From positions 3,313,881-3,377,880 of the forward strand of contig NC_057758.1 in NCBI RefSeq assembly GCF_004010195.1: 64,000 nucleotides of DNA, in the 5' to 3' direction. Below are positions 2,990 to 49,230 of the stretch, piece by piece. This DNA comes from Chiloscyllium plagiosum (lineage: Eukaryota). The notes beneath the pieces are model-generated. The model was given only the letters and a program-made list of their open reading frames with translations, made no database searches and had not been told where the DNA came from. The position numbers and the translations under genes are program-made. Position 1 is the stretch's first letter; each line of letters begins with the position of its first letter.

Positions 2990-5900
2990 TGTAACTGGAA
3001 TCAAAGTCTTGGAATCAATACCTGGAATCAAAGATAGACACGTGGGCAGAGGGGGTGGGTTGCTCAATTTGTAAGAAATGAAATTAAATCAATAGGAAGA
3101 AAGGAAGTAGGGTCTGATGGTATAGGATCTGTGTGGGTAAAATTGAGGTACCACAAAGGTTAAAAAAATGACACAGTTGGAATCATAGGTCTCCAAACAG
3201 TAGTCATGAGCTGGGGCGCAAGATATCCCAGGGGATCGAAAAGATGAGTAAAAAAGGCAAAGTCACAGTGATCACAAGGGATTTCAATATGCAGATGAGC
3301 TGGGAACCTCAGATTGGTCGTGGTTCGAGTGAAAATGAATTTGCATAATGTCTGTGAGATGGCTTTTTGGGGCAGCTTGTGATGGAGTCCATTAGGGAAC
3401 AGTCAATGCGACATTTAGTGCTGTGCAATGAGAACGACTTGATTAGGGAGCCCAAGGTGAAGGAAAACTTAGGAAGCAGTGATCACAACATCATCAAATT
3501 TACTCTGCAATTTGGAAGAGAGAAAATAGAATCAGAGGTAACGGTATTTCCACTGAATAAAGGCAACTATCGAGGCAATAAGGACAAGCTTGGTAGAATT
3601 AACTGAGAGAGAAGCTGAGCAGTTAATACAGTGATACAACAATGGAAGGAGCTTCTGGGGGTAATTCAGAAGACACAGAAGAAACTCATCGCCAGTAAAA
3701 AAGAAGCATAGTATAAGGAGGAACTGGCAACCATAGCTGACTAGGGAAGTCAGGAATCGCATTAAAGTTAAAGAGAAAGTATATAAAGTAGTGAATAAAG
3801 GTGGACAACGCACAGGACTGAGAACTTTACCAAGACCAACAAAGGGCAACATGAAAAGAAATAAGGAGGATACGATAGCCAGTAAGACAAAAGAAGATAG
3901 TAAGAGATTTTTCTTTGATTATAAAGAAGAGAAAAGAGAGACAGAGGTGAAAATAGGGCTGTTGGAAAGTGACGCTGAAAATATCATAGTGGGGAACAAG
4001 AAAATGTTGAGGACTGAATAATTACATCGCATCACTCTCCAAGGTGGAAGACACGAGCAATTTCCCTAACGTTCAAGACAGTGAGGAGACAGAGGTGAGT
4101 ATGGTAGCGATTACCAAGGTGAAGGTGCTAGAAATCCTGAATGGCATGAAGTTGAACAAGTCACTTGGACCAAACGCACTACATGCCAGAGTTGAAAGGG
4201 AGACAGCTGAAGAGATAGTGGAGGCATTAGTGGTAATCTTTCAGGAATCAGCAGAATCATGGAGGGCTCCGGGAGACATGAAAACAGCTAACATAACAGC
4301 CCTGTTTAAGAAGGGAGTAAGGCAGAAGATGAAAAACGCCTGAACGATTTGGCTAACCTCAGTCATGGATAACATCTTGGAATCTATCATGAAGGATCAG
4401 ATTTCTGAATACTTGGAAGTGCATAATACAATAGGTAGAGTCAGCATGGTTTCATCAAGGATGCTTAATGCCTGAAAAATCTGCTAGAATTAGAGACATG
4501 GAGTCATAGAGATGTACAGCACAGAAACAGGCCCTTCAGCCCAACCGTCCATGCTGACCAGATATCCCAACCCAATCTAGTCCCACCTGCCAGTACTTGG
4601 CCCATATCCTTCTAAACCCGTCCTATTCATATACACATCCAAATGCCTTTTAAATGTTGCAATTGTACTAGCCTCCACCATTTCGTCTGGCAGCTCATTC
4701 CACGCACGTACCATCCTCTGTGTGGAAAAAGTTGCCCCTTAGGTCTCTTTTCTATCTTTCCCCTCTCAACCTAATCCTATGCCCTCTAATTCTGGACTCC
4801 CCCACCCCAGGGAAAAGACTTTGTCAAATTATCCTATCCATGCCCCTCATAATTTTGTAAACTTCTATAAGGTCACCCCTCAGCCTCCGACGATCCAGGG
4901 AAAACAGCCCCAGCCTGTTCAGCCTCTCCCTGGAGCTCAAATCCTCCAACCCTGGCAACGTCCTTGTAAATCTTTTCTGAACCATTTCAAGTTTCACAAC
5001 ATGTTTCCCATAGGAAGGAGACCAAAATTGCATGCAATATTCCAACAGTGGTCTAACCACTGTCCTGTACAGCCGCAACATGACCTCCCAACTCCTGTAC
5101 TCAGTATTCTGACTGATAAATTCAAGCATACAAAGCGCCTTCTTCACTATCCTACCTACCTCCAACTCCACTTTCAAGGAGTTATGAACCCGCACTCCAA
5201 TGTTTCTTTGTCCAGCAACACTCCCTAGGACCTTACCATTAAGTGTATAAGTCCTGCTAAGATTTGATTTCCCAAAATGCAGAACGTCGCATTTATCTGA
5301 ATGAAACTCCATCTGCCACTTCTCTGTCCATTGGCCCATCTGATCAAGGTCCTGTTGTAATCTGAGGTAATCTTCTTCGCTGTCCACTACATCTTCAATT
5401 TTGGTGTCATCTGCAAACTTACTAACTATCCCTCTTTATGGAGAACCAATGGATGTTATCTACTTGGACGTCAAGAAGGCCTTTGACAAGGTGCCGGACA
5501 GGAGGCTATTGAATAACATAGGGGCCCATCATGTTAGAGGCAAGGCGTTAGCATGGGTAGACTGAGGCTATTTGGCAGAAATCAGAGTATCGGGATAGAA
5601 GGGTTCTTCACAGCCAGTGACAAGCAGCATTCCTCAGGGCTCCGTGTAGGGTCCACAAACTTTCACATTAACGATCTTGATGAAGGGACTGAGGGTATTC
5701 TGCCTAAATTTGCAGATAATACAAAGATTGTTAGAGGGGCAGGTGGTATTGCGGAGTTGGAGAAACTGCAGTAGAATTTGGACAGATTAGGAGATTGGGC
5801 AATGAAGTGGCAGATGAAGTATATCGTGGGAAAGTGTGGGATGTGGGGTCATGCACCTTGGTACAAGCATAGAGGAATGGACTATTTTCTCAATGAGGAG

Positions 5901-6625
5901 GAAATTCAAAAGTCTGATGTACAGAGACTTAGGAGTTCTGATCCAGATTCTCTCAATATAAACTTGTCGGTTAATTTAGTAGTTAGGAAGGTAAATGCAA
6001 TAATGATAGTTATTTCAAGAGGACTTGAATATAAAAACAGAGATGTACGTCTGAGTCTCCATAAGGCTATGGTCAGGTCACATTTGAACTATTGTGTGCA
6101 GGATTGGGCACCACATCTCTGGAATATAGTACAGGCTTTGGAGCGTGTTCAAAGGAGATGCACAAGAATGATCCCAAGAATGCACAGCTTAATTTGTGAT
6201 GAACGCGTGAGGACTCTGGGTCTAAATCGATAGAGTTTAGAAGGATGAAGGGTGGTCCAATTGAATCTTACAGAATACTAAATGGCCAAGACAAAATCGG
6301 TGTTAAGAAGACGTTTCCACTGATAGGAGAGACGAGAACACTAGGGTATTGCCTTTGAATAAAGGGAAGATCTTTTAGAACAGAGCTGAGGAGAAACGTC
6401 TTCAGTCAGAGAATGGTGAATCTGTGGAAATCACTGCCACAAAAGGCAATGGAGGTCAGGTCATTCAGTATACCTAAGATTAAGATAGCTATGTTCAAAG
6501 GGATCAAAGATTAAGGCGAGAACACCGGAGAATGGGGTTGAGAAACTTATCGGTCATGGTTGAATGTTGGAACAGACTCGATAGGCTGAATGGCCTAATT
6601 TCTGCCCTTATGTCTTATGGTCTTA
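2990..6625 (+). mobile_element. Decayed CR1-clade LINE ORF2 (APE endonuclease and RT) with 3' end
   Basis: Fragments LGSSDHNII, ANITALFKKG, KFADNTKI and HLNYCVQDWAPH with many stops and frameshifts; 3' tail ...CTTATGTCTTATGGTCTTAT. Confidence 0.85.
4495..5438 (-). mobile_element. Younger HER1/CR1 LINE 3' fragment nested in the older CR1
   Basis: ORF 4824..5387 encodes the CR1 RT C-terminus (LQQDLDQMGQW...LEYCMQFWSP...RLRGDLIEVYKIM), opposite in orientation to the host. Confidence 0.9.
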
Positions 6626-7159
6626 TCAAAACTTAATGCTTCTGTCAAGCCAATTAGTTATCAGTGTACAGATATATCTAACTGTATAATATTTGTCGTG
6701 GTGAAGGTTTGAATACAGTCGTCTTTGAGCTTAAAATAAGTATTGTTCTGTGGTTATGGAGATGATTTGGACATTATTCCGCTGCTGTTTCTTGAACAAA
6801 TATCTGAGTTTGCCAACACAATAAGGACATAGAGTCACAGCAGCTTCATAAGGAAAATGAGACAGGATGGCGACTAGCTCCTCTTCAGAAGTAAACATTG
6901 AGAAAAACAACATTCAATCGTAAGAACCTGCAACAATTGGAAGAGAATGGTAGTGGTTTGACCTGATAGTCATCACACCTCAGACAATGGGAAGGCTTGA
7001 GAAGGTGGGACCTGCCATGGTATGAATGGAGAGGCAATGTCAGATAAAGTCATTTGAAAAGAAAATAACAAATCGTGTATGATGTAGGAAGTGGTGAAGT
7101 TGTTCATTTGGCAAAGCAATCTAACTTTCATTGAACTATGACCACCATTTACAGATGCA

Positions 7160-7935
7160 CCAGACAAAGCATTTTGCCTGGATGCATCACAATCTAATGC
7201 TCTGTCTAAGACTGGAAGAAACTACAGAAAGCTGTGATCACTGTCTAGATCAACAAACAAGCCAACCTTCAATCCATTGACTCAATCTATACTTCTTGCT
7301 GCCACAGAAAGGCAGTCAACATTATTAAAGGCTGCTCCCCTGACCCCCACCCCAGTTATGATTTCTTCCAACCTTTCTGAGTCATATAAAGTCATAGAGT
7401 CCTACAGCACAAAGACAGGCCCTTTGGCCCAAACTGGTCCATGCAGACCAAAATGTCCATCCACGCAAGCTGCATTTACTTGGACTTGGTGCATATCCTT
7501 CAAAATCTTTCCTACCCATGTCTTTGTACATATGCCTACTTCCACTGGCAGCTTATTCCATATGCGCACCACCCGCCATGTAAAACAGTTGCCCTCAGGT
7601 TCCCCTCTAAGCTTAAACCAATGCCCTCTCATCCTCGATTCCCCAAAGTTGAGAAAAAGACTGAGTGCATTCTCTCTCTTCTGTCAGACAGAAGGTACAA
7701 AACCTTAAAGACACATACTGAAAGGTTCAAGAACATCTTATTCCCCGTTGTTATCAGACTTCTGAATGGAAAACTCATATTTGAACACTCATGTTGACGT
7801 TGCTTTCTGTACACTATTGCAGCTGAAACTTCATATTGCTCACTCTGTTTAATTACCTCTCTGTATTTGCGTGTTATAATCTGCCATACTGCAGGCAACA
7901 CGTAGCATTTCATTGTACTTAGGGACATAATAAAT
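7160..7935 (+). mobile_element. Rex1/Babar-like LINE 3' fragment interrupted by a minus-strand CR1 3' end (~7385-7670)
   Basis: Peptide RRYKTLKTHTERFKNILFPVVIRLLN resembles Rex1-type C-termini; ends in an AATAAATCAA-type tail; the insert encodes RGHWFKLRGE...VVRIWNKLP. Confidence 0.55.
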
Positions 7936-9712
7936 CAAAATAAATCAAATTCATTTCTAACATCGCTCTGCACTATAAACTCCAACATCGATGCAATGGC
8001 AATCATACAAATGTGGAAATCTGAAGTACTTTTTGCAGATAGTGACAGATAAAAATAGGCAAGGTAAACACAGGGGAAGATAATTGGCAAACAGAAAAGG
8101 AGAGATGGAGAAATAGTGAGGATAAAGAAAATGAGATAGAGAGAGCAATCAAAGGGAGACTCAGACCGAATAATCAGGGAGAGACTACGGAATAGAAAAG
8201 CCAAAAAAGAGACAAAACGGGGGAGTGAGGTGGGGGTGGGAGAGGGGAAGCAGAGTGAGCTACTGGGAAATGAACAGATCAGGAAAGGTACAGAATTGTA
8301 ATAAATAACTGACAGCACCCGTTCCAGAATCCCAGGACGTCTCAGAGTGATGGACACACATGCCTGGCAATTGTCTGCTGTCATTGTTTTGTTGGGGAGG
8401 GGGGCACAAGGCAACCATTTTGCACACAAGTAGTTTCCAATGTTACCAACAACGTAACAGCTGGTCTGTTGTAGGGATATGTTTTGGTGCCAGTTCACAC
8501 TGGGGGAGGGATGCAGTGGAAGGGTCGTTGGGGGAAACCACAAGGTCCGATTCCATGAAATATTTCAAGTTGGGAAGTTTCAGGATCCAGTAGGAATATT
8601 CCAATTGGAACTGTGTGACGACCGAGTTGGACAATTGCTTCCGAGGTCGATTAACTGAAACCTGCCATGCAAAGGGGGGTAGAAGCAGGCATGTCATGCA
8701 GCTTTGGACGTATATATGCATCCAGAATGGGGAGCTGTCGCAGAAACATCTGAAAAAGAGAAGTGTTGTTATTTGCATAATCTCCCAGCCTCTTTGAAAG
8801 ATCTAAATGCATCATTTCTTGCCCAATTGTAATGGGTTTAAATACAAACTCAGTCTACTCTTGCTTTTCTGCATGACATTCATGGCATCAACAAATAGCA
8901 ACCATTCGTTAAGCTGAACAAAGCATTGGCATGATTTCCAAGTTGGTTTTTTTGTGTCGTGGGTTCCATGTGGCAGTCTGGTATATGAACTCACAGCTCC
9001 TGCATCAGAGATCAGAAGATCAGAAATGATTCTTGCTGCAAACCACAAGAACTCTCAGTGCCTTGTCTGTTATTGATGGCTCTTTATGATTAAACCTTTG
9101 TTTGAGAATCAGTTGTAGATGAATTTCTACTCATGGTTACAAAACCAAGTTAAACGCCAGGAGGCCAACACAATTTCAGGGATGCGAGGGAACAATCTCT
9201 GATTATTTTGGACAGTCGGTCGGTCTGTTAAATATTTGCCTCTTAGACGGATTTCACCGGCCCCAAGGCTCCATTCAGTCTCTGAGGGCTCCACAAGGCT
9301 CTAATCAAACAATGCAAAAACTGAAAATGATCCAGTATCTCATTGTGTGTTCAATACACAGGCTGTACGCAGTTGAATGCCACCCCTCCCAAAAAAAAAC
9401 CCAAACATTGCACGCATTATTGCACTGTAGGCAATGTGCATGTTGCTAAATGGTGATTACCCAAATATCTGGAGTCCCAAATGTAGACATTACATTACTT
9501 AGTCAATACAGACTGTGCAAGTGTTTACATTGAAGTGACAGTCATCTCACACTGTCCACATTGCCTTACTGTAAACAATACAGTTTACACAATGCTGAGT
9601 GTCTAAATGTCAGGGGACAACACAGAAGGTGTTGTATTACAATTGGTCTTGTTTTACTGCAGCCTGTACAATGGTAAGTAGCCAAACCAAACAGTAGACA
9701 TTGCATTACAGC

Positions 9713-10758
9713 CATGATTTGGAGATGCCAGTGTTGGACTGGGGTGTACAAAGTTAAAAATCACACAACACCAGGGATAGTCCATCAGGTTTATTTGGGA
9801 ACAATACCTTTCTGAGCGCTGCTCCTTCATCAGGTGGTTGTGGAGTATAAGGTCATAAGACACAGAATTTATAGCAAATGCTTACAGTGTGAAGTAGATG
9901 AAATTATACATTGAAAAAGACCTGAATTGTTTGTTCAGTCTCTCATCTTTTGGAATGAACACGTTGATTTCAGTTCTTTCATATGTAAATCGCAGAACTG
10001 TTTTAAAGTTACACTCTCAGGTGAACTTTAACAATTGGTATCATCTCGGCCCAGATAATGCAGTTAAGCTGTGAGGTGCCCTTTGTGAGCCTGTCTGTGC
10101 CAGACTGTTCAGACTGATTCTAATCTTAAAGAAAAGGATTTACAGAATCGTACATGGATTCATGCAGTTTTGAGCAAAATAAAATGTAATTTTGCAAGTA
10201 CAATTTCACCCCTCAAACTTATATGTGTGCATGTGGGTGGTGGTGATGAGTGTCTGTGAGAGAGTGTCTGCATGCATGTGAGTGTGAGTGTGAAGGGGTG
10301 TAAGTCTGTGAGAGGGTGCATGTGTGTGGGAGTGTATATGTGAGTGTATGAGAGAGAACTTGTATATGAGACAGGGTCTGTGTGAGTGTATGGGTCTGTG
10401 TGTATGCGTGTGTGTCTGTGTGTGCGTCTGTGTGTGCATGTCTGTCTGTATCTGTGTGTGCAGTCCAATAGGGTGTAGTAAAGTGTAGTTGAGTGTAGAA
10501 TAAAAGGTTATGCGATTTACATATGAGAAAACTGCAACCAGCATGATCATTCCAAAAGTGGAGAGACTTAACAAACAATCCAGGTAATTTTCAATATATA
10601 ATTTCAGTTACATCACACTGTAACGCTTGCTATAAATTCTGTGTCTTACGATCTTATACTCCACAACCACCTGATAAAGGAGCAGGACTCCGAAAGCTAG
10701 TGCTCCCAAATAAATCCGTTGGACTATAACCTGGTGTTGTGTGGTTTTTAACTTTGTA
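9713..10758. mobile_element. PLE-derived non-autonomous element with ~170-bp inverted termini (AGCU-family hammerhead)
   Basis: 9747-9920 is the reverse complement of ~10590-10758. Degenerate hammerhead cores at 9803-9836 (-) and 10668-10702 (+). Internal (TG)-rich tract. Confidence 0.75.
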
Positions 10759-11727: not shown

Positions 11728-12124
11728 CTTGCAGGTAATCCTGTCTATTACATTCGTGCTGTTGGATGTGGGTGTCGGATCATTAACGTCTTGTGGAACT
11801 GGTAAAAGATGTTTGCTGGTTTGTTGGCCATTATGACTCTTAGAGGTCTGTGTGCTACTGTGTGCATCTCAGAGTGTGTGTGGGTGTGCGGTTGTGTGCG
11901 TATTTGAGTGTGTGTGTATACACATATGCAGAAACACACACACACTCTCAGATACACACACACACAAACACACACACTCAGATACACACACAGTAACATA
12001 CTGTCCTCAAGGAGTCTTAGTGGCCCACAAACCAGTAAACAACTTTCACCAGCTCCTCACAGAAGTTAAAGACCCGACACCCACATCCAACAGCATGAAA
12101 GTCATCGACAGGATTACCTGCAAG
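11728..12124. repeat. Inverted duplication of a PLE GIY-YIG N-terminal fragment flanking a (TG)n/(CA)n spacer
   Basis: ~11728-11846 is the imperfect reverse complement of ~12005-12124; encodes VAHKPVNNFHQLLTEVKDPTPTSNSMKVIDRITCK. Confidence 0.75.
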
Positions 12125-15376: not shown

Positions 15377-15661
15377 AAGTTAAAAATCACACAACACCAG
15401 GTTATAATCCAACAGATTTAATTGGAAGCACACTAACTTAACAGACAATCAAATTTTCAATGTATAATTTCAGTTACATCACACTGTAAATTTTTGTTAT
15501 AAATTCTGTGTGTTAAGATTGAGCCCTCCACTACCACCTGATGAAGGAGCGTCGCACCGAAAGCTAGTTTGCTTCCAATTAAACCTCTTGGACTATAACC
15601 TGGTGTTGTGTGATTTTTAACTTTGTACACCCCAGTCCAACACCGGCATCTCCAAATCATG
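15377..15661 (+). mobile_element. Short PLE 3'-end insertion with inverted 5' segment and 12-bp TSD
   Basis: ACTGATATTACA at 15365-15376 and 15662-15673; hammerhead core CTGATGAAGGAGCGTCGCACCGAAAGCTA from 15538. Confidence 0.8.
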
Positions 15662-31480: not shown

Positions 31481-31734
31481 ACACGTATAGTGATAACAGT
31501 CAGCAAGATGTCTAAGGTCAATAATACTCTCAAAACGTGTGAACAGATTTGCACAGCCTCAAATAGATTTGATGTACGAAAGATCCCAGCAGGTTTAAAC
31601 AGACCTGGTCAACCACCCGATGAAGGGCCAGTGCATGGAAAGCTAGTGCTTCATATAAACCTGTTGGTCTACAACCTGGTGTTGTGTGATTTTTTAACTT
31701 TATTTACCTGTGTGAGTAAGAGTTACCTCAGTAG

Positions 31735-34887: not shown

Positions 34888-35011
34888 GTAAAAACAATGA
34901 CTGCAGATGCTGGAAACTAGATTCTGGACTAGACGTGCTGGAAAAACACAGCATTTCAGGCAGCATCCTCGGATGCTGCCTGAACTGCTGCGCTTTTCCA
35001 GCACCTCTAAT
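34888..35011. mobile_element. Small fold-back PLE derivative with 14-bp TSD
   Basis: CCATAAATTTCCTA at 34874-34887 and 35012-35025; inverted arms centred on GCAGCATCC-TC-GGATGCTGC. Confidence 0.8.
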
Positions 35012-35591
35012 CCATAAATTTCCTAACCCATCCTTCTATGCTCTCATCCAGATCATTTTAATAAATGACAAACAATTGTTGATCCAAAGCAGATCCTTGT
35101 GATACATCACTAGCAACTGAACTCCAGGATGAATATTTCCTATCAACTACCACCCATTGTCTTCTTTCAGCTGGCCAATCTCTGATCCAAACCACTAAAT
35201 CACCCTCAATCGCATGCCTCAGTAGTTTGTGCAATAGCCTCCCGTGGTGAACCTTAAAAAACGCCTTACTGAAATCCATATACACCACATCAACCACGTT
35301 ACCCACATCCACCTGTCTGGTCACCTTCTCAAAGAACTCAATAGGTTTTGCGAGGCACGACCTACCCTTCACAAAATCGTGTTGACTATCCCTAACCAAC
35401 TTATTCCTTTCCAGATCATTATGAATTCTTTCTCTTATAACCTTTTCCAACACTTGACCCACAACTGAAGGAAGGCTCACAGGTCTAGAATTTCCAGGGT
35501 TGTATCTACTCCCCTGCTTGAACAACAGAAAAAAGTTTGCTATCCTTCAGTCTACTGATACTTTTCCTGTCAACAGTGACGACATAAAGAT

Positions 35592-37255
35592 CCCGAATGG
35601 ATTACGGATCACAAACCCACTTAGGTCGACCTACAACACAGACTACGCAGAGAGACTTTGCCACCGCACCTCTCGTAAACTTCTCAATCATCTCGTGCAC
35701 CAACTCTACAGCAGGCCAAAAACTGGAGACGCTGGGCATTCTCACCAATAATAGCAAAGCCCGCCCTGGAACCACAGTAGACAACATTATCACTGTGGGG
35801 AAGTCTATTGTCAACTTATCGGACCACACCCTTCGACCGGAAGAGATTGAAGTCCTGAGTAGGGGTCTCAACTTCTGCCCCACCACCAAAATGGGCCCGT
35901 TGGATCTGGCAGCAGTCAGAGGAGTTCATCAGATGTATGAGACTCCGGGAATTCTTTCAAGGTGCCGGCATTGATCCCACTGATGAACTAGAACAGTCAT
36001 CACAGGGATCTGTAGAGGAGCGACCAAAGAAGGTGTCAACATGGACCCCACCGGAGGGCCGGAGTTCATCAGACGAATGAGACTCCGGGAATTCTTTCAA
36101 AGTGCCAGCAGTGATCCCACTGAGTCCACTGATGAACTAGAACAGTCATCACAGGAATCTGTAGAGGAGCGACCAAAGAAGGTGTCAACATGGACCCCAC
36201 CGGAAGGCCGCTGCCCTGGGCTTGACATGTATGCTCAAACTGTCAGGAAATATATAAATGCCAGATTCATCAGCCACACCCACAAGGTAGAGCAAAACAT
36301 CACCCGTTCACAACGCAATGCCATCCAGGCTCTCAAAACCAATGACAACATTGTCATCAAACCAGCAGATAAAGGAGGAGCCATTGTCATTCAGAATAGA
36401 ACAGATTACTGCAGGTAAGTGTACTGACAACTGAACAGCCAGGAACACTACAGGCAACTACCAGCTGATCCGACCAGAGAACACACCCATGAATTAAACA
36501 CACTGATCAGAACTTTGGATCCAATCCTTCAGAGTTCCCTACGCGCCCTCATCCGAAACTCAGCACCCGCGGGCCAGTCGAACCGGGAACGTTCCTCGTC
36601 ACAATGGATGTTTCCGCACTCTACACCAGCATCCCCCACAATGATGGCATCGCGGCAACTGCCAGTCTCCAAACACCATCCTATAACTCATCCGCTTTAT
36701 CCTCGATCATAATGTCTTCACCTTTGACAACCAATTCTTCATCCAGACACACGGAACAATCATGGGGACCAAATTTGCACCCCAATATGCCAACATTTTT
36801 ATGCACAGGTTCGAACAAGATTTCTTCTCTATGCAGGATCTCCAACCGACATTGTACACCAGGTACATTGATGACATTTTCTTCCTCTGGACCCATGGCG
36901 AGGAGTCACTGATAAAACTACACAGTGACATCAACAATTTTCATCCCACCATCAAACTCACCATGGACTACTCTCGACTGTCTGTCTCATTCTTGGACAC
37001 GTGCGTCTCCCTCAAGGACGGACACCTCAGCACCACACTCTACCGCAAACCCACAGACAACCTCACAATGCTACACTTCTCCATCTTCCACCCAAAACAT
37101 ATTAAAACAGCCATTCCCTATGGACAAGCCCTACGCATACACCAGAAACAAAAAAAAACACAATCACCTGATGAAGGAGCATCGCTCCGAAAGCTAGTGT
37201 GCTTCCAATTAAACCTGTTGGACTATAACCTGGTGTTGTGTGATTTTTAACTCTT
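35592..37255 (+). mobile_element. Penelope-like retroelement, internally deleted (RT pseudogene plus hammerhead-bearing tail)
   Basis: PLE motifs IVNLSD...VLSRGLNFCP, IVIKPADKGGAIVI, MDVSALYTSIPH, GTKFAPQYANIFM, YTRYIDDIFFLW, FLD, LYRKPTD; frameshifts; tail with hammerhead at 37165-37199. Confidence 0.92.
37165..37199 (+). ncRNA. Minimal type I hammerhead ribozyme motif, AGCU family, intact core
   Basis: CAC-CTGATGA-A-GGAGC-ATC-GCTCC-GAAAG-CTA-GTG: helix I CAC/GTG, helix II GGAGC/GCTCC, palindromic AGCT helix III, predicted cleavage after CUA. Confidence 0.7.
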
Positions 37256-37773
37256 TAGTAAACAACAGCTCCCGCGCTCGACAATTTCTTCCCTGCCTGA
37301 CCAATACATAGTTATCAAGTAGCTGGTCCTTGAATAAACTCCACATTTCAATTGCGCACATCCCCTGAAGGTTCCTTTCCCACCCTATGCATCCTAATTA
37401 CATGGCAATTGCCTTCCCCCCAGCTATAACTCTAGCCCTGCGGCATATACCAATCCCATTCCATCACTAAAGTAAACATAACCGAATTATGGTCACCTAC
37501 CTCCAAATCTAACACCTGGTCCGGTTCACTACCCAGTACCAATGTTACCTCGCCCTTTGTTGGCCTATCTACATACATACATAGACTACACCTCCTCCCA
37601 CCCTGCCCCCTGTAAAAATGCAATTCCATATTCCCAATTCCTTCGTCTCTGCCGCATCTGCTCCCAGGAGGACCAGTTCCAATACCGAACAACCCAGATG
37701 GCCTCCTTCTTCAAAGACCGCAATTTCCCCCCAGACGTGATCAACGATGCTCTCCACCGCATCTCCTCCACTT

Positions 37774-38422: not shown

Positions 38423-38471
38423 AGTCCCTCCTCCCTACCTTTTATCTTAGCCTGCTGGGCACACTTTCCTC

Positions 38472-38507
38472 ATTCCTGAAGAAGGGGTCATGCCCGAAAC
38501 GTCGATT
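38472..38507 (+). ncRNA. Minimal type I hammerhead ribozyme motif, ACGU family
   Basis: ATTC-CTGAAGA-A-GGGGTCATGCCC-GAAAC-GTC-GATT: complete core, predicted GUC cleavage triplet, short helix I with one mismatch. Confidence 0.65.
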
Positions 38508-39230
38508 CTCCTGCTCCTTGGATGCTGCCTGACCTGCTGCGCTTTTCCAGCAACACACTTTCAGCTATCTACATACTGTGTCAGGAAACCCTCCTACACA
38601 CACTGAACAAAAACTGACCCATCTAAAGTACTTGAGGGGTTGCTCCCCCTTCCCCTCAAGGATAACAAAAACACAATAAGAGACATCACGAAGCCTGGCA
38701 CGTGGGAGGCAACACACCAACCATGAGTATTTCTCATTCTCGGAGGAACTCCTATCTGTCCCCTTAACTATGGAGTCTCAATGACTAATGCTCGGCTCCT
38801 CTTCCACCTTCCCTTCTGAGAAACCGGAACAGAATCTGTGCTAGAGACCTGTACATCATGGTTTACCCCTGATCAGTCCCCGCACCACCCCCCTCCCGCC
38901 CAATCGCTGTGGGCCAAGAAGGGAGTGGGATATCATTGCAGACAGAGCAAAGAGACAAGATGGGAAATAGTGGGACAGTTGCAAAACAGCACATGAGAAG
39001 AGAAGGAGAGAAATGGAGAAGAACTGAGAGTAAAGAATGAAGAGATTTTAGCTCGGCAAATGATGCAGGGCAAGGAGAGTTGTATTTCGCATGGGTATTG
39101 ATACAGGGCTATGGTGTGAGAGCGGGACATTGGGATAATTTTGGGAATGATACAGGGACAGGACGGGTAATGAGATTAGCTTGGAGACTGACACAGGAAT
39201 GTGAGAAACAAACAGGATAAACTCACTCAC

Positions 39231-41878: not shown

Positions 41879-42539
41879 TGGGAGGGGCGTGGATCGTATA
41901 AATAGACAAAGTCTTTTTCCTGGGTGGGGATGTCCAGAATTAGAGAGGGCAGTTTACAATGAGGGGGGAAAAATCTCAAGGGGACCATTTGTGCGTCATG
42001 CCCAATCCGATTGGCCATCTCAGTTTCTCCATCAACATGTGCAACGCCACCACCGCCTGCCTGATTGTGACGGTGTAGGTGCAGTAATAGACCAACCTAT
42101 CCAAATCTTATATCCGGTTGGCCCACCCCCGTGTCAGTCAACCATATTGACCCGCTTTGCTATTGGTCTCTGTATCCTTCCATCAGCGTTCCCCGCCCAT
42201 CCCATTCATTCAATCGCTGGCTCTCATGTCAATCAAAAATGTGCATCAACTACCCGATGAATGGGCACCACTGTGAAAGCTAGTGCTTCCAAATAAACCT
42301 TTGGACTGTAACCTGGTCTTGTGTAGTTTTTGAACTTTGTCCATTACAAAGTTATGCCCCGCCCCCATTTCCAAATTGCACCGCTACAGTATCCATCTGC
42401 AATGCTGCAATTGTACAAAACTCTGGTGCAGCCACATTTGGTGTATTGCATACAGTTCTGGTCACCACACTATAAGGATGTGGAAGCTTTGGAAAGAGTT
42501 CAGAGCAGATTTACTGGGATGTTGCCTGATATGAAGGGG

Positions 42540-42744
42540 AGCTGAAAATGTGTTGCTGGAAAAACGCAGCAGGTCAGGCAGCATCCAAGGAACAGGAGAA
42601 TCGACGTTTTGGGCATAAGCCCTTCTTCAGGCTTATGCCCGAAACGTCGATTCTCCTGTTCCTTGGATGCTGCCTGACCTGCTGCGCTTTTCCAGCAACA
42701 CATTTTTAGCTCTGATCTCCAGCATCTTCAGTCCTCACTTTCTC
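42540..42744. mobile_element. Fold-back PLE derivative inserted in a CR1 fragment, with ~16-19 bp TSD
   Basis: Near-perfect arms 42540-42621 and 42630-42711; CCTGATATGAAGGGGAGCT at 42525-42543 and 42744-42762. Confidence 0.85.
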
Positions 42745-47334: not shown

Positions 47335-49230
47335 CTCACTGGTGTCTCCGCAGGCTGGATAATCGAGTGTATGCTTTTCTGCACTCAGAGCTTCTCCTCG
47401 GTGTGACCTCACTGGAGGTCCTGCAGGCTGGATAATGGAGGGAATCCCTTCCCAATCCAAGAGCAGGTGAGTGGCTTCTCCCCGGGGTAAACTCGCTAGT
47501 GTCCCTGCAGGCTGGATCCTTACCCGAGAGCAGGGGAATGGCCTCTCCCCAGTGTGACCTTGCTGGTGTCACTGCAGGTTGAATAACTGTAAATCCCTTC
47601 CGGCACTGCCAGCAGGTGTATGGCTTCTCCCCGATGTGAATCCATTAATGGTGCATCAGTTTGGATTAATCTGTGAACCGCTTCCCACACTGAGGGCAGG
47701 TGAACGGCCACTCCCCGATGTGAATCAGTCAGGGATGCAGCTGGTGGCATGAAGCAGTGAATTCCTTCCCACACGGAGTTACAAATCGCACAACACCACG
47801 TTATAATCCGACAAGTTGAGTTGGAAGCACTAGCTTTCGGAGTGCCCTTACATACTCACACCCCTACACGCTCATACAGACCCTCTCTCATACACACGTT
47901 CTCTCTCTCATATACACACAATTACACCCCTACTCACAGGCTTATACTCCTCCTCTCTCTCTCTCTCTCTCTCACACACACTCACACTGTCTCTCTCTCT
48001 CCTGCGTGCGCACACACAAGTCTATAGGGGCGAATTTGTATTTGCAGAATTATACTTGCAAATACATTCTATTTTGTTCAAGAAATGCACAACCTGCAGG
48101 CAGTTAATCCGCGTTATATTTTATAAATTCCACTTTGGAAATGAAGCCAGTCTGACTCAAGATTGGGATACAGACTGTAATTTCACACCTTTAATGCATT
48201 GTCTGAGCTGAGATGTGTTTTTTTATATAAAACCTTAAGTTATCTTGAGAATGTGACTTCAAAGAAGTTCTGGCATTGACATGTTAATGGTCTGAAACCT
48301 GCAAACCTTTCTAAAAGATGAAAGATGTGACAACAGTAGAGGTGTATTTAATATATCACTTCAGTTGCATGATACTGTAATCTTGTGCTACACATTGTGT
48401 GTCCTATGGTCCTGCTCCACAACCACCTGATGAAGCAGTGTTTTGAAAGCTCGTGCGTCCAGACAAACCCATTGGACTATAACCTGGTGTCATGTGACTT
48501 TTAACTTGGTCCACCCCAGTCCAACACTGGCTCCTACACAGACAGGAAGTAAATGGCTTCTACCCAGTATGAATTCAATGGTGAATGAGCAAGGCGGACA
48601 ACTGAGTAAATTATTTCCCACATTCACAGCAAGTGAACAATCACTCCCTCGGATGAACTCTGAAGCTCTCAGCAGCTTGGCTGAATGGGGGAATCCCTCC
48701 CATGGTCAGAGCCAGGGAACACCGTCTTCTGGGTGTGAACTCCCTTGTGTTTCAGCAGGGTGGATTTGTCAGTGAATCACTTCTCACTTGGTGGGTGGGG
48801 GCGGCACAGTAGCACTGCTGCCTCACAGCCAGGGACCCGAGTTCAATTCCAGCCTCGGGCGACTGTCTGTGTGGAGTTTGCACGTTATCCCAGTGTGCGC
48901 GTGGATTTCCTCCGGGTGTTCCAGTTTCCTCCCACAGTCCAAAGGTGTGCAGGTTAGGGTGAATTGGTCAGGCTAAATTACTGGTAATGTTAGGCGCATT
49001 AGTCAGGGGTACATGGGTCTGGGTGGGTTACTCTTTGGTGTGTCAGTGTGGACTTGATGGGCTGAAAAGGCCTGTTTCCACACTGTAGGGCATGTAATCA
49101 CTCTCAGAACACATGAATGGCCTCATGTATTTGCGAGCATGCATCTCAAGTGCAGATGGGGAAGGGAATCCCTCCCTACAGTGCCCACATTTCTGGAATT
49201 TACTCATGCTGAGAGTGTACTCATTGGTGG
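47335..49230 (-). pseudogene. C2H2 zinc-finger gene remnant, interrupted by a PLE derivative (47779-48535) and a SINE (48790-49098)
   Basis: Minus strand reads [96 protein letters not shown] and HTGERPFPC, with stops and frameshifts. Confidence 0.85.

What the first reader, a model, noticed from the sequence alone, without database searches (positions are those of the whole stretch)
37165..37199. Intact minimal hammerhead ribozyme at the tail of a Penelope RT (AGCU family)
Seen: CAC CUGAUGA A GGAGC-AUC-GCUCC GAAAG CUA GUG directly after the PLE RT fragment. All core nucleotides are present, with an extra A after A9, and helix III is reduced to a loopless self-complementary AGCU. Known: PLEs carry minimal type I hammerheads thought to act as dimers. 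Inference: the abundant shark repeat tail CTGATGAAGGAGCnnnGCTCCGAAAGCTAGTG is a ribozyme with a CUA triplet. Decayed copies lie at ~9803-9836, 10668-10702, 15535-15570, 31615-31650, 42255-42290 and 48424-48455.
Basis: partly seen in the sequence, partly recalled or inferred. Interest (0 to 1): 0.75.

Follow-up and report, generated by a model that had tools for sequence, protein, structure and literature searches.

The report
Penelope hammerhead sits at RNA cap
This is a real, intact copy of the small self-cutting RNA motif already known from Penelope-type jumping genes, and the ends of its thousands of sister copies likely show that it sits at the capped front of the element's RNA, that most copies were likely made from uncut RNA, and that the rare long copies likely came from a different, possibly ribozyme-closed circular, template.

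Summary
The motif at 37165-37199 is there as described. It fits the published Penelope-like-element (PLE) minimal hammerhead consensus, including the extra nucleotide and palindromic helix III; 12,186 exact copies, control 0. Known kind. 'Directly after the RT' is peculiar to this dead copy: in 18 of 29 sister copies the motif lies 1.07-1.46 kb further on, in none closer; here about 1.43 kb is replaced by a 13-nt A-rich filler. Cleavage is untested. Copy ends add more: 1,357 start 37 nt before the cut, 30 nt below a TATA box, 93 of 100 listed with a non-native G (cap signature); 82 start at the cut, no more than at a control site. Raw RNA reads gain poly(A) 28-31 nt after the cut. So the hammerhead likely lies in a terminally repeated R-like segment, and most insertions are run-off copies of uncut capped RNA. 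Long copies mostly pass the cap site (8 of 10), fitting but not proving a circular template. The scan noted the known motif and the cap-G pattern before, on other DNA including this genome.

The parts
37165..37199 (+). Minimal type I hammerhead motif: 3-bp helix I, intact core, extra A, 5-bp helix II, palindromic AGCU in place of helix III, predicted cut between 37196 and 37197 (coordinate 0 = 37197)
   Evidence: matches the consensus line in PMC4209133 supplement file 2
37159..37252 (+). Short pLTR piece of about 94 nt. It begins at -38/-37, the family's pile-up of 5' ends (inferred cap site), and ends at +55, the first of two preferred 3' ends (inferred RT start). This copy has the native C, not the extra G, at -38
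37208..37213 (+). Polyadenylation signal ATTAAA (AATAAA in a sister subfamily), with a GU/U-rich stretch at about 37231-37248
   Evidence: A(A/T)TAAA in 231 of 266 copies; reads with A tails 12-15 nt downstream
37225..37228 (+). Position equivalent to the poly(A) addition site (+28/+31) seen in RNA reads laid on sister copy L062
   Evidence: 420 + 516 of 3,386 laid reads in run X20; 0 genomic copies with an A-run there
37146..37158 (+). 13-nt A-rich filler in place of about 1.43 kb (rest of the thumb, Cys linker, GIY-YIG domain, 3' UTR, TATA region)
35586..37145 (+). Broken PLE ORF fragment of the same family: 5'-truncated about 110 nt into the ORF, with a 130-nt deletion near 35717, a 150-nt duplication near 36061, a 188-nt deletion near 36554; RT core with YIDD in 36687-37145
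   Evidence: (RVT_1 E 1.8e-05, below the curated cut-off)
35058..35585 (-). Host LINE RT fragment (CR1-like; name recalled) interrupted by the PLE; it resumes at 37253. About 500 nt of the LINE are missing at the insertion and no target duplication was seen
   Evidence: RVT_1 E 1.9e-11; gap 495-594 nt in 4 of 5 comparisons, 71 in one
9802..9833 (-). Decayed copy of the same motif, with long upstream sequence and full tail
10668..10702 (+). Decayed copy (core G8 changed)
15535..15570 (+). Decayed copy with an inverted 5' partner
31615..31650 (+). Decayed short copy starting at -36
42255..42290 (+). Decayed short copy starting at -36
48424..48455 (+). Decayed copy with shortened helix II

Best explanation
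The motif is a minimal type I hammerhead in the pseudo-LTR of an endonuclease-bearing Penelope-like element, left here in a broken copy, and in the intact element it likely sits in a short segment repeated at both ends of the mRNA, where the two copies are predicted to pair through AGCU and would cut and rejoin the RNA into a circle that templates long copies. Steps: (1) shown: units of 3,438 nt carry the motif at both ends, 92 nt before the ATG and after the endonuclease. (2) Inferred from junctions: transcription starts at a capped A 37 nt before the cut, 30 nt below a TATA box. (3) Seen in reads of a coded organism: poly(A) is added 28-31 nt after the cut, so the repeated segment runs from -37 to about +30. 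(4) Inferred, by analogy with the Anolis element: RT starts internally at +55 or +92, often on both target strands. (5) Inferred: on uncut capped RNA it runs off the cap after 90-130 nt, which gives the majority short and head-to-head copies; occasionally it jumps from the cap end to an internal point, which likely made this window's copy. (6) Least certain: slow, probably protein-assisted dimer cleavage and ligation supplies the cap-free template of long, more-than-unit copies. Rough odds: membership 0.95, cap site 0.85, this copy as a jump product 0.6, circle 0.35-0.4.
For: Unit architecture in L062 and L069. C-X4-C-X2-C linker and a C-terminal domain that resembles GIY-YIG clusters (scores 0.96, PF01541 on 31-34% of members). 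Family-level changes that keep the fold. In 179 copies found through their 3' part, 131 start in -46..-1 (69 in -46..-30), 40 run further upstream, 8 start at 0 or later, 3 at -1..+1; 97 have a head-to-head partner; 3' ends are bimodal, 72 at about +54..+61 and 80 at +87..+92. Genome-wide exact junctions: 1,357 at -37, 147 at -5, 82 at 0; 93 of the 100 listed at -37 have G where the element has C (counted by eye); untemplated 5' G is attributed to cap copying for L1/SVA (PMC3287187). TATAAA in 76 of 93 long-upstream copies. A tails in 936 of 3,386 laid reads, none in the genome. Of 63 ORF-start copies, 13 (plus 1 by eye) show an ORF piece followed by a jump back to -32..-46 with 0-6 filler bases, six exactly at -37, four of these with G. 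Of 10 long-ORF copies that reach the cap zone, 8 pass it and 2 stop, against 40 and 131 in the general sample (Fisher p 4e-4).
Against: No cleavage, ligation or circular RNA was observed. Copy ends show no excess at the cut, and RNA depth shows no step there (1389, 1378, 1535), though a poly(A)-primed library cannot see cut products. The monomer does not fold into helix I and the two-copy minimum-energy fold is not the hammerhead dimer. In Anolis PAc, hammerhead mutants do not affect insertion in vitro and no reads ended at the cut (PMC11167929); Naiad PLEs thrive without canonical hammerheads (PMC8557442). The long-copy contrast rests on 10 copies and fits read-through RNA equally; my first count was 0 stops and fell to 2 on inspection. 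Comparison of 5' and 3' repeats did not separate the models. Jump chimeras are uncommon overall: 0 of 41 non-inverted short copies in the unbiased set have element sequence directly upstream, the window's copy lacks the extra G, and its 13-nt filler is longer than the 0-6 seen elsewhere. Many G-bearing junctions are inverted joins, where a G-rich partner can contribute. The reads are from coded organism B, not shown to be the species of G000, and may be host transcripts ending in copies.
Confidence: 0.5

Rival explanations
1. The hammerhead is real but dispensable for making copies. Short copies run off the cap as above, while long copies come from read-through transcripts started upstream, or from a homology-guided template switch between the two repeated segments, as in LTR elements.
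For: No excess of ends at the cut; uncut poly(A) RNA; about 30% of depth continues past the poly(A) site (1596 to 489); jumps from the cap end demonstrably leave copies; PAc insertion is independent of the hammerhead in vitro.
Against: Several families keep core, extra base and palindrome while helices change, which needs selection on the fold. A switch from the cap end should fail as often on the second arrival as on the first, yet 8 of 10 long copies pass. Read-through alone would erode the promoter over generations (inference).
Confidence: 0.3
2. The hammerhead is a regulatory switch on the mRNA: dimer cleavage would remove the 37-nt capped leader and the poly(A) end, stopping translation or triggering decay, without making a template.
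For: The cut lies 37 nt after the inferred cap and 28-31 nt before the poly(A) site; PAc cleavage needs bound protein, which would give feedback; cut RNA leaves no excess of copies.
Against: Does not explain why long copies lack the cap wall; no expression data bear on it.
Confidence: 0.13
3. About this copy only: the RT-to-hammerhead join arose later, by deletion in an ordinary long copy or by a separate short insertion plus loss of the rest, and says nothing about mechanism.
For: The fragment has two other deletions and a duplication, about 500 nt of the host LINE are lost, and the extra G is absent.
Against: The right side of the join falls on the family's 5' wall, and the same ORF-piece/filler/-37 structure recurs in 13-14 of 63 ORF-start copies.
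Confidence: 0.35
4. The likeness to a hammerhead is chance within an abundant repeat.
For: Rfam gives no hammerhead hit; folding z-score only -0.88.
Against: 131 descriptor hits in 1.34 Mb of fetched DNA (enriched for these elements), 0 in the reversed control; independent families with different helices; exact fit to the published PLE consensus and position.
Confidence: 0.02

Closest known systems
Minimal hammerheads (min-HHR) in pLTRs of metazoan Penelope-like elements (Cervera and De la Pena 2014, PMC4209133; parts 1-2 of 4 and supplement file 2 part 2 of 3 read)
   Same: Type I topology, CUGANGA plus one extra base, G10.1-C11.1, loopless palindromic helix III, 3-bp helix I, location in both repeats, dispersed solo copies. 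Their alignment has an AGCU form in the turtle Chrysemys and a circular-template hypothesis.
   Different: No cartilaginous fish term was found in the supplement text searched (file 1 not searched). AGCU with A17 is not among the vertebrate rows seen. Motif counts here (29,857 AGCU and 118,116 ACGU pattern matches) exceed their 4,000-9,000 in coelacanth and Xenopus, by a different search method.
Poseidon element PAc of Anolis carolinensis (Frangieh et al. 2024, PMC11167929; parts 1-2 of 4 and passages read)
   Same: Two internal RT start sites bounding an optional tail (here +55 and +92, 37 nt apart), AT-rich targets, extension on both strands, uncut RNA as main substrate, no RNA ends at the cut.
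   Different: In PAc the ATG lies inside the hammerhead and the starts are 111-118 nt into the ORF; here the hammerhead and both starts lie before the ATG, and the protein has the Cys linker. The passages read do not map a cap site or poly(A) site.
Neptune/Nematis clades of endonuclease-positive PLEs (Craig et al. 2021, PMC8557442; passages read)
   Same: RT, then a CX2-5CxxC linker, then a C-terminal GIY-YIG-like domain; partial tandems, inverted 5' partner, 30-40-bp tail, hammerhead in the pLTR.
   Different: Clade not placed by a tree here. Arkhipova et al. 2013 (PMC3846280, passages) read head-to-head joins as self-priming on an antisense template; the extra G at a fixed sense-strand start points instead to a capped sense template.
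Metazoan non-LTR retrozymes (Li, Clavereau and Pollet 2026, bioRxiv 10.64898/2026.07.22.740005; parts 1-2 of 5 read)
   Same: Type I hammerhead, PLE pLTR origin, reported from one cartilaginous fish.
   Different: Retrozymes are tandem non-coding units; the short copies here are single or head-to-head, share a fixed start, and belong to a coding element.

Membership tests
PLE minimal type I hammerhead | Core CUGANGA...GAAA...UH intact | tested here: met
PLE minimal type I hammerhead | Extra base between positions 9 and 10.1; G10.1-C11.1 pair | tested here: met
   A37175; G37176-C37188; feature stated in PMC4209133
PLE minimal type I hammerhead | Palindromic 15.2-16.2, no stable helix III | tested here: met
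   AGCU here; ACGU in other families
PLE minimal type I hammerhead | Families with compensatory changes in helices I and II | tested here: met
   Majority sequences of fetched copies: helix I CAC/GUG, AUUC/GAAU, UCA/UGA, GUU/AAC; helix II GGAGC/GCUCC, GGGC/GCCC, GGGUC/GACCC and longer forms. Qualitative; no phylogeny-aware covariation statistic. One large ACGU family has a U-U mismatch in helix I. Within the AGCU family frequent variants fall in loop II, the leader, a 2-nt indel after helix I and one base of the poly(A) signal
PLE minimal type I hammerhead | Located in both pLTRs of a PLE | tested here: met
   L062 and L069; the window copy keeps only one
PLE minimal type I hammerhead | Self-cleavage as a dimer | not testable with these tools
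   No assay; indirect genomic and RNA signs of cutting were not found
Endonuclease-positive PLE | Single ORF with RT and C-terminal GIY-YIG | tested here: met
   RVT_1; Pfam found no family on the C-terminal 163 aa but the Atlas nearest named clusters are GIY-YIG; no fetched copy has an unbroken ORF
Endonuclease-positive PLE | pLTR partial tandems, inverted 5' partner, optional 30-40-nt tail | tested here: met
Neptune/Nematis clade | CX2-5CxxC linker between RT and endonuclease | tested here: met
   C-X4-C-X2-C in L062; criterion from PMC8557442
Neptune/Nematis clade | RT groups with the clade in a tree | not tested
   No reference sequences were fetched
Non-LTR retrozyme | Tandem non-coding units each with a hammerhead | tested here: not met
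   The window copy is single and joined to ORF sequence; sampled copies are single, head-to-head or ends of coding units. No genome-wide array search was run

The most novel reading that the evidence does not exclude
The Penelope pseudo-LTR is built like a true LTR (TATA region, then a repeated cap-to-poly(A) segment holding the hammerhead, then the RT start sites), and the dimeric hammerhead is the switch between two fates of one RNA: uncut and capped, it yields tens of thousands of dead strong-stop-like stubs; cut and closed into a 3,438-nt circle by pairing its two ends through AGCU, it yields the long tandem copies that keep the element alive.
Probability: 0.3. Interest if true: 0.75.

Novelty: new member of a known kind. 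Interest (0 to 1): 0.45.

Why it matters
The motif alone is ordinary for Penelope-like elements. What the hammerhead does in these elements is described as unclear (PMC8557442), and how they make tandem copies from an internally primed RT is open (PMC11167929). This family gives exact coordinates for an inferred cap (-37), the predicted cut (0), the poly(A) site (+28/+31) and two RT starts (+55, +92), and a contrast between short and long copies, so the 2014 circular-template idea can be tested with three primer pairs and one mutant.

Tried and rejected
Rfam scan: no hammerhead family among 24 weak matches. Monomer and two-copy folding did not give the hammerhead fold, so energy offers no support. 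PDB sequence search with an RT fragment: nothing meaningful. Pfam did not name the endonuclease. Search for an AUAU/AAUU palindrome family: 2,031 matches (control 70), mostly ACGU copies decayed at the CpG. End-to-end jumping onto the natural poly(A) tail as the source of long copies: 0 genomic copies with the A-run. Identity of 5' and 3' repeats as a circle test: too few complete pairs, inconclusive. My first count of long copies (0 stops at the cap, 8 passes) was wrong; two copies with internal deletions do stop there, and the corrected test is. No RNA holder was on record in the run index; run X21 gave 0 laid reads, and contig runs cannot show ends. Lunse et al. 2017 could not be read and is known only through a review. 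One search timed out and was rewritten.

Full report
Observation. The window shows the motif exactly as described at 37165-37199: 3-bp helix I, full core, an extra A, 5-bp helix II, AGCU in place of helix III and a CUA triplet. The six decayed copies are present and four more family pieces were found. The 35-nt pattern has 12,186 exact matches in the 3.56-Gb genome, reversed control 0; a looser AGCU pattern has 29,857 (control 4) and the ACGU pattern 118,116 (control 13). Rfam does not detect it. The host species was not tested. Below, position 0 is the base after the predicted cut (window 37197).

The element. The RT fragment beside the motif belongs to a family with at least 3,223 candidate matches. 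In the 29 other best copies the RT continues; 18 carry the motif 1,069-1,459 nt downstream and 11 have none within 1.5 kb. Loci L062 and L069 show the full layout: repeat, ATG at +92, RT, a C-X4-C-X2-C linker, a C-terminal domain resembling GIY-YIG clusters, 3' UTR, repeat; unit length 3,438 nt (Pfam named only the RT). By the linker this is a Neptune/Nematis-type PLE (criterion in PMC8557442, passages); no tree was built. The window copy is dead: 5'-truncated, two deletions, one duplication, and about 1.43 kb replaced by a 13-nt A-rich filler, inside a LINE that has lost about 500 nt at the site.

Is it a hammerhead? It fits the published PLE consensus, which includes the extra base and the palindrome (PMC4209133). 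A descriptor found 131 motifs in 1.34 Mb of fetched DNA, which is enriched for these elements, and 0 in the reversed control. Other families change helix I, helix II and the palindrome but keep the core. Within this family frequent variants fall in loop II, the leader, a 2-nt indel after helix I and a base that switches ATTAAA to AATAAA (66 copies); the downstream part was used for selection, so it is no neutral control. Folding programs do not return the hammerhead for one or two copies. Cleavage was not tested; published PLE motifs cut weakly and only as multimers or with protein.

Where copies begin. I collected 179 copies through their 3' part (89 copies from motif- or RT-selected loci and 3 with N at the junction were left out; copies starting beyond about +18 cannot be seen). 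131 begin in -46..-1 with a wall at -37/-38, 40 run further upstream, 8 begin at 0 or later and 3 at -1..+1. 97 have a head-to-head partner. 3' ends cluster at about +55 (72) and +87..+92 (80), matching the two internal RT starts that bound the tail in Anolis PAc. Genome-wide, for the young subfamily, junctions defined by three non-native bases number 1,357 at -37, 147 at -5 (37 of the 100 listed are palindromic inverted joins, ten pairs counted twice) and 82 at 0 (the anchors differ in length and position). Of the 100 listed at -37, 93 have G where the element has C (counted by eye; the pattern allowed A, G or T). Such a G is attributed to copying of the cap in L1 and SVA (PMC3287187, passages). 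A TATAAA box starts at -67 and is kept in 76 of 93 long-upstream copies. I infer a capped start at -37, five bases before helix I. Caveat: many of these junctions are inverted joins with a G-rich partner, though G also precedes 4 of 5 non-inverted -37 starts.

RNA. In raw single-cell poly(A) run X20 (coded organism B, about 2% of the run read), 420 and 516 of 3,386 laid reads carry an A tail at +28 and +31, 12-15 nt after the signal; depth of that strand class falls from 1596 to 489 across the site and shows no step at the cut (one search gave 342 and 400 at a stricter likeness). No genomic copy has an A-run there against 20,452 exact tail matches. So sense RNAs with an uncut hammerhead are polyadenylated just after it. 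This library cannot see cut products, and the reads may include host transcripts that end in copies. Run X21 of the same sample gave no reads.

Long copies and jumps. Of 70 copies with the tail-ATG junction, 63 were examined; 7 on small contigs were not fetched. Thirteen (one more by eye) show an ORF piece followed by a return to -32..-46 with 0-6 filler bases, six exactly at -37, four of those with G. The window copy has this structure, so it is likely a cap run-off cDNA that jumped into the ORF; but such chimeras are uncommon (0 of 41 non-inverted short copies in the unbiased set) and later deletion remains possible. Among 21 copies with 600 nt or more of ORF, 8 pass the cap site into upstream sequence, 2 stop there and 11 stop at +6..+81 (one bounded by N); among 42 shorter ones 19 stop and 3 pass (Fisher p 4e-4 and 6e-4). 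Long copies therefore mostly come from a template without the capped end: a circle, or read-through RNA. Comparing 5' and 3' repeats did not decide.

Mechanism. Shown: anatomy, counts, junction pattern, A-tailed reads. Inferred: cap at -37; a repeated segment from -37 to about +30 that holds the hammerhead at both ends of the mRNA; internal RT starts on both target strands; short copies as run-off products of uncut RNA. Least certain: pairing of the two AGCU palindromes, cleavage and ligation to a 3,438-nt circle as template of long copies, an idea proposed in 2014. Against it: no sign of cutting here, and PAc inserts without an active hammerhead in vitro.

Literature. Read in part: PMC4209133 (parts 1-2 of 4; supplement file 2 part 2 of 3; file 1 not searched), PMC11167929 (parts 1-2 of 4, passages; supplements not seen, and its Fig. 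S2 on copy ends may bear on the cap claim), bioRxiv 10.64898/2026.07.22.740005 (parts 1-2 of 5; supplements not seen, and they may list this family), passages of PMC6765202, PMC8557442, PMC2377424 (D. virilis Penelope has a TATA-less internal promoter), PMC3846280 (TATA and Inr noted in a rotifer pLTR) and PMC3287187. Lunse et al. 2017 was not held. Searches found one review for Penelope + shark + hammerhead ribozyme, none of 15 listed (of 37) with both Penelope and 'untemplated G', 0 for Penelope-like + strand transfer + pLTR and none of 15 listed (of 21) with 'template jump'. The library lacks most subscription papers, so this is not proof of novelty.

Earlier scan notes. Several file the motif as known. 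One reports joins clustered at the cut in another genome; it prompted, which do not show this here. The cap-G reading was reached and then found in notes on this and other genomes; a circular-template reading for another shark-like element appears. These are unchecked notes and are not counted as evidence.

Verdict. Real, a new member of a known kind; interest 0.45, carried by the testable map of the replication cycle and not by the motif.

Noticed in passing
window 38470-38510 (+), with ORF remnant 37482-37772: A second PLE family with an ACGU-palindrome minimal hammerhead (one helix II mismatch here); 118,116 pattern matches genome-wide. Many copies also begin a few bases before helix I and form head-to-head pairs.
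   Followed up: partly
window 42580-42672: The Rfam 'microRNA' hits here are a head-to-head pair of ACGU-family short copies; such pairs form long hairpins that could mislead miRNA prediction.
   Followed up: partly
G000:C1:147113717-147113760 and nine other pairs: Perfect inverted joins centred on the palindrome that includes the helix III bases, which probably serves as microhomology when two cDNAs are joined.
   Followed up: no
L124, L146, L152, L204, L258, L264: A rarer hammerhead family with extra U, 6-bp helix II and a TATA-like box upstream; further families with 5-6-bp helix II and U17 in L012, L064, L104, L143.
   Followed up: partly
window 37160-37251: The predicted fold pairs the leader and the 5' strand of helix I with the GU-rich stretch at about +37..+47, which would block both helix I and the poly(A) downstream element (z -1.88); no covariation support.
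   Followed up: no
L297 (= L072), L077, L320: ACGU-family copies inserted inside or at the end of AGCU-family repeats (L297 with a target duplication, L077); in L320 a deletion starts at the predicted cut, over 3 nt of microhomology.
   Followed up: no
window 37208-37228 and sister copies: Tens of thousands of short copies carry a working poly(A) signal, so sense-oriented copies may end host transcripts.
   Followed up: no
window 11860-12000 and 34943-34996: Simple (TG)/(CA) and inverted repeats that give spurious microRNA-family scores below the gathering thresholds.
   Followed up: no
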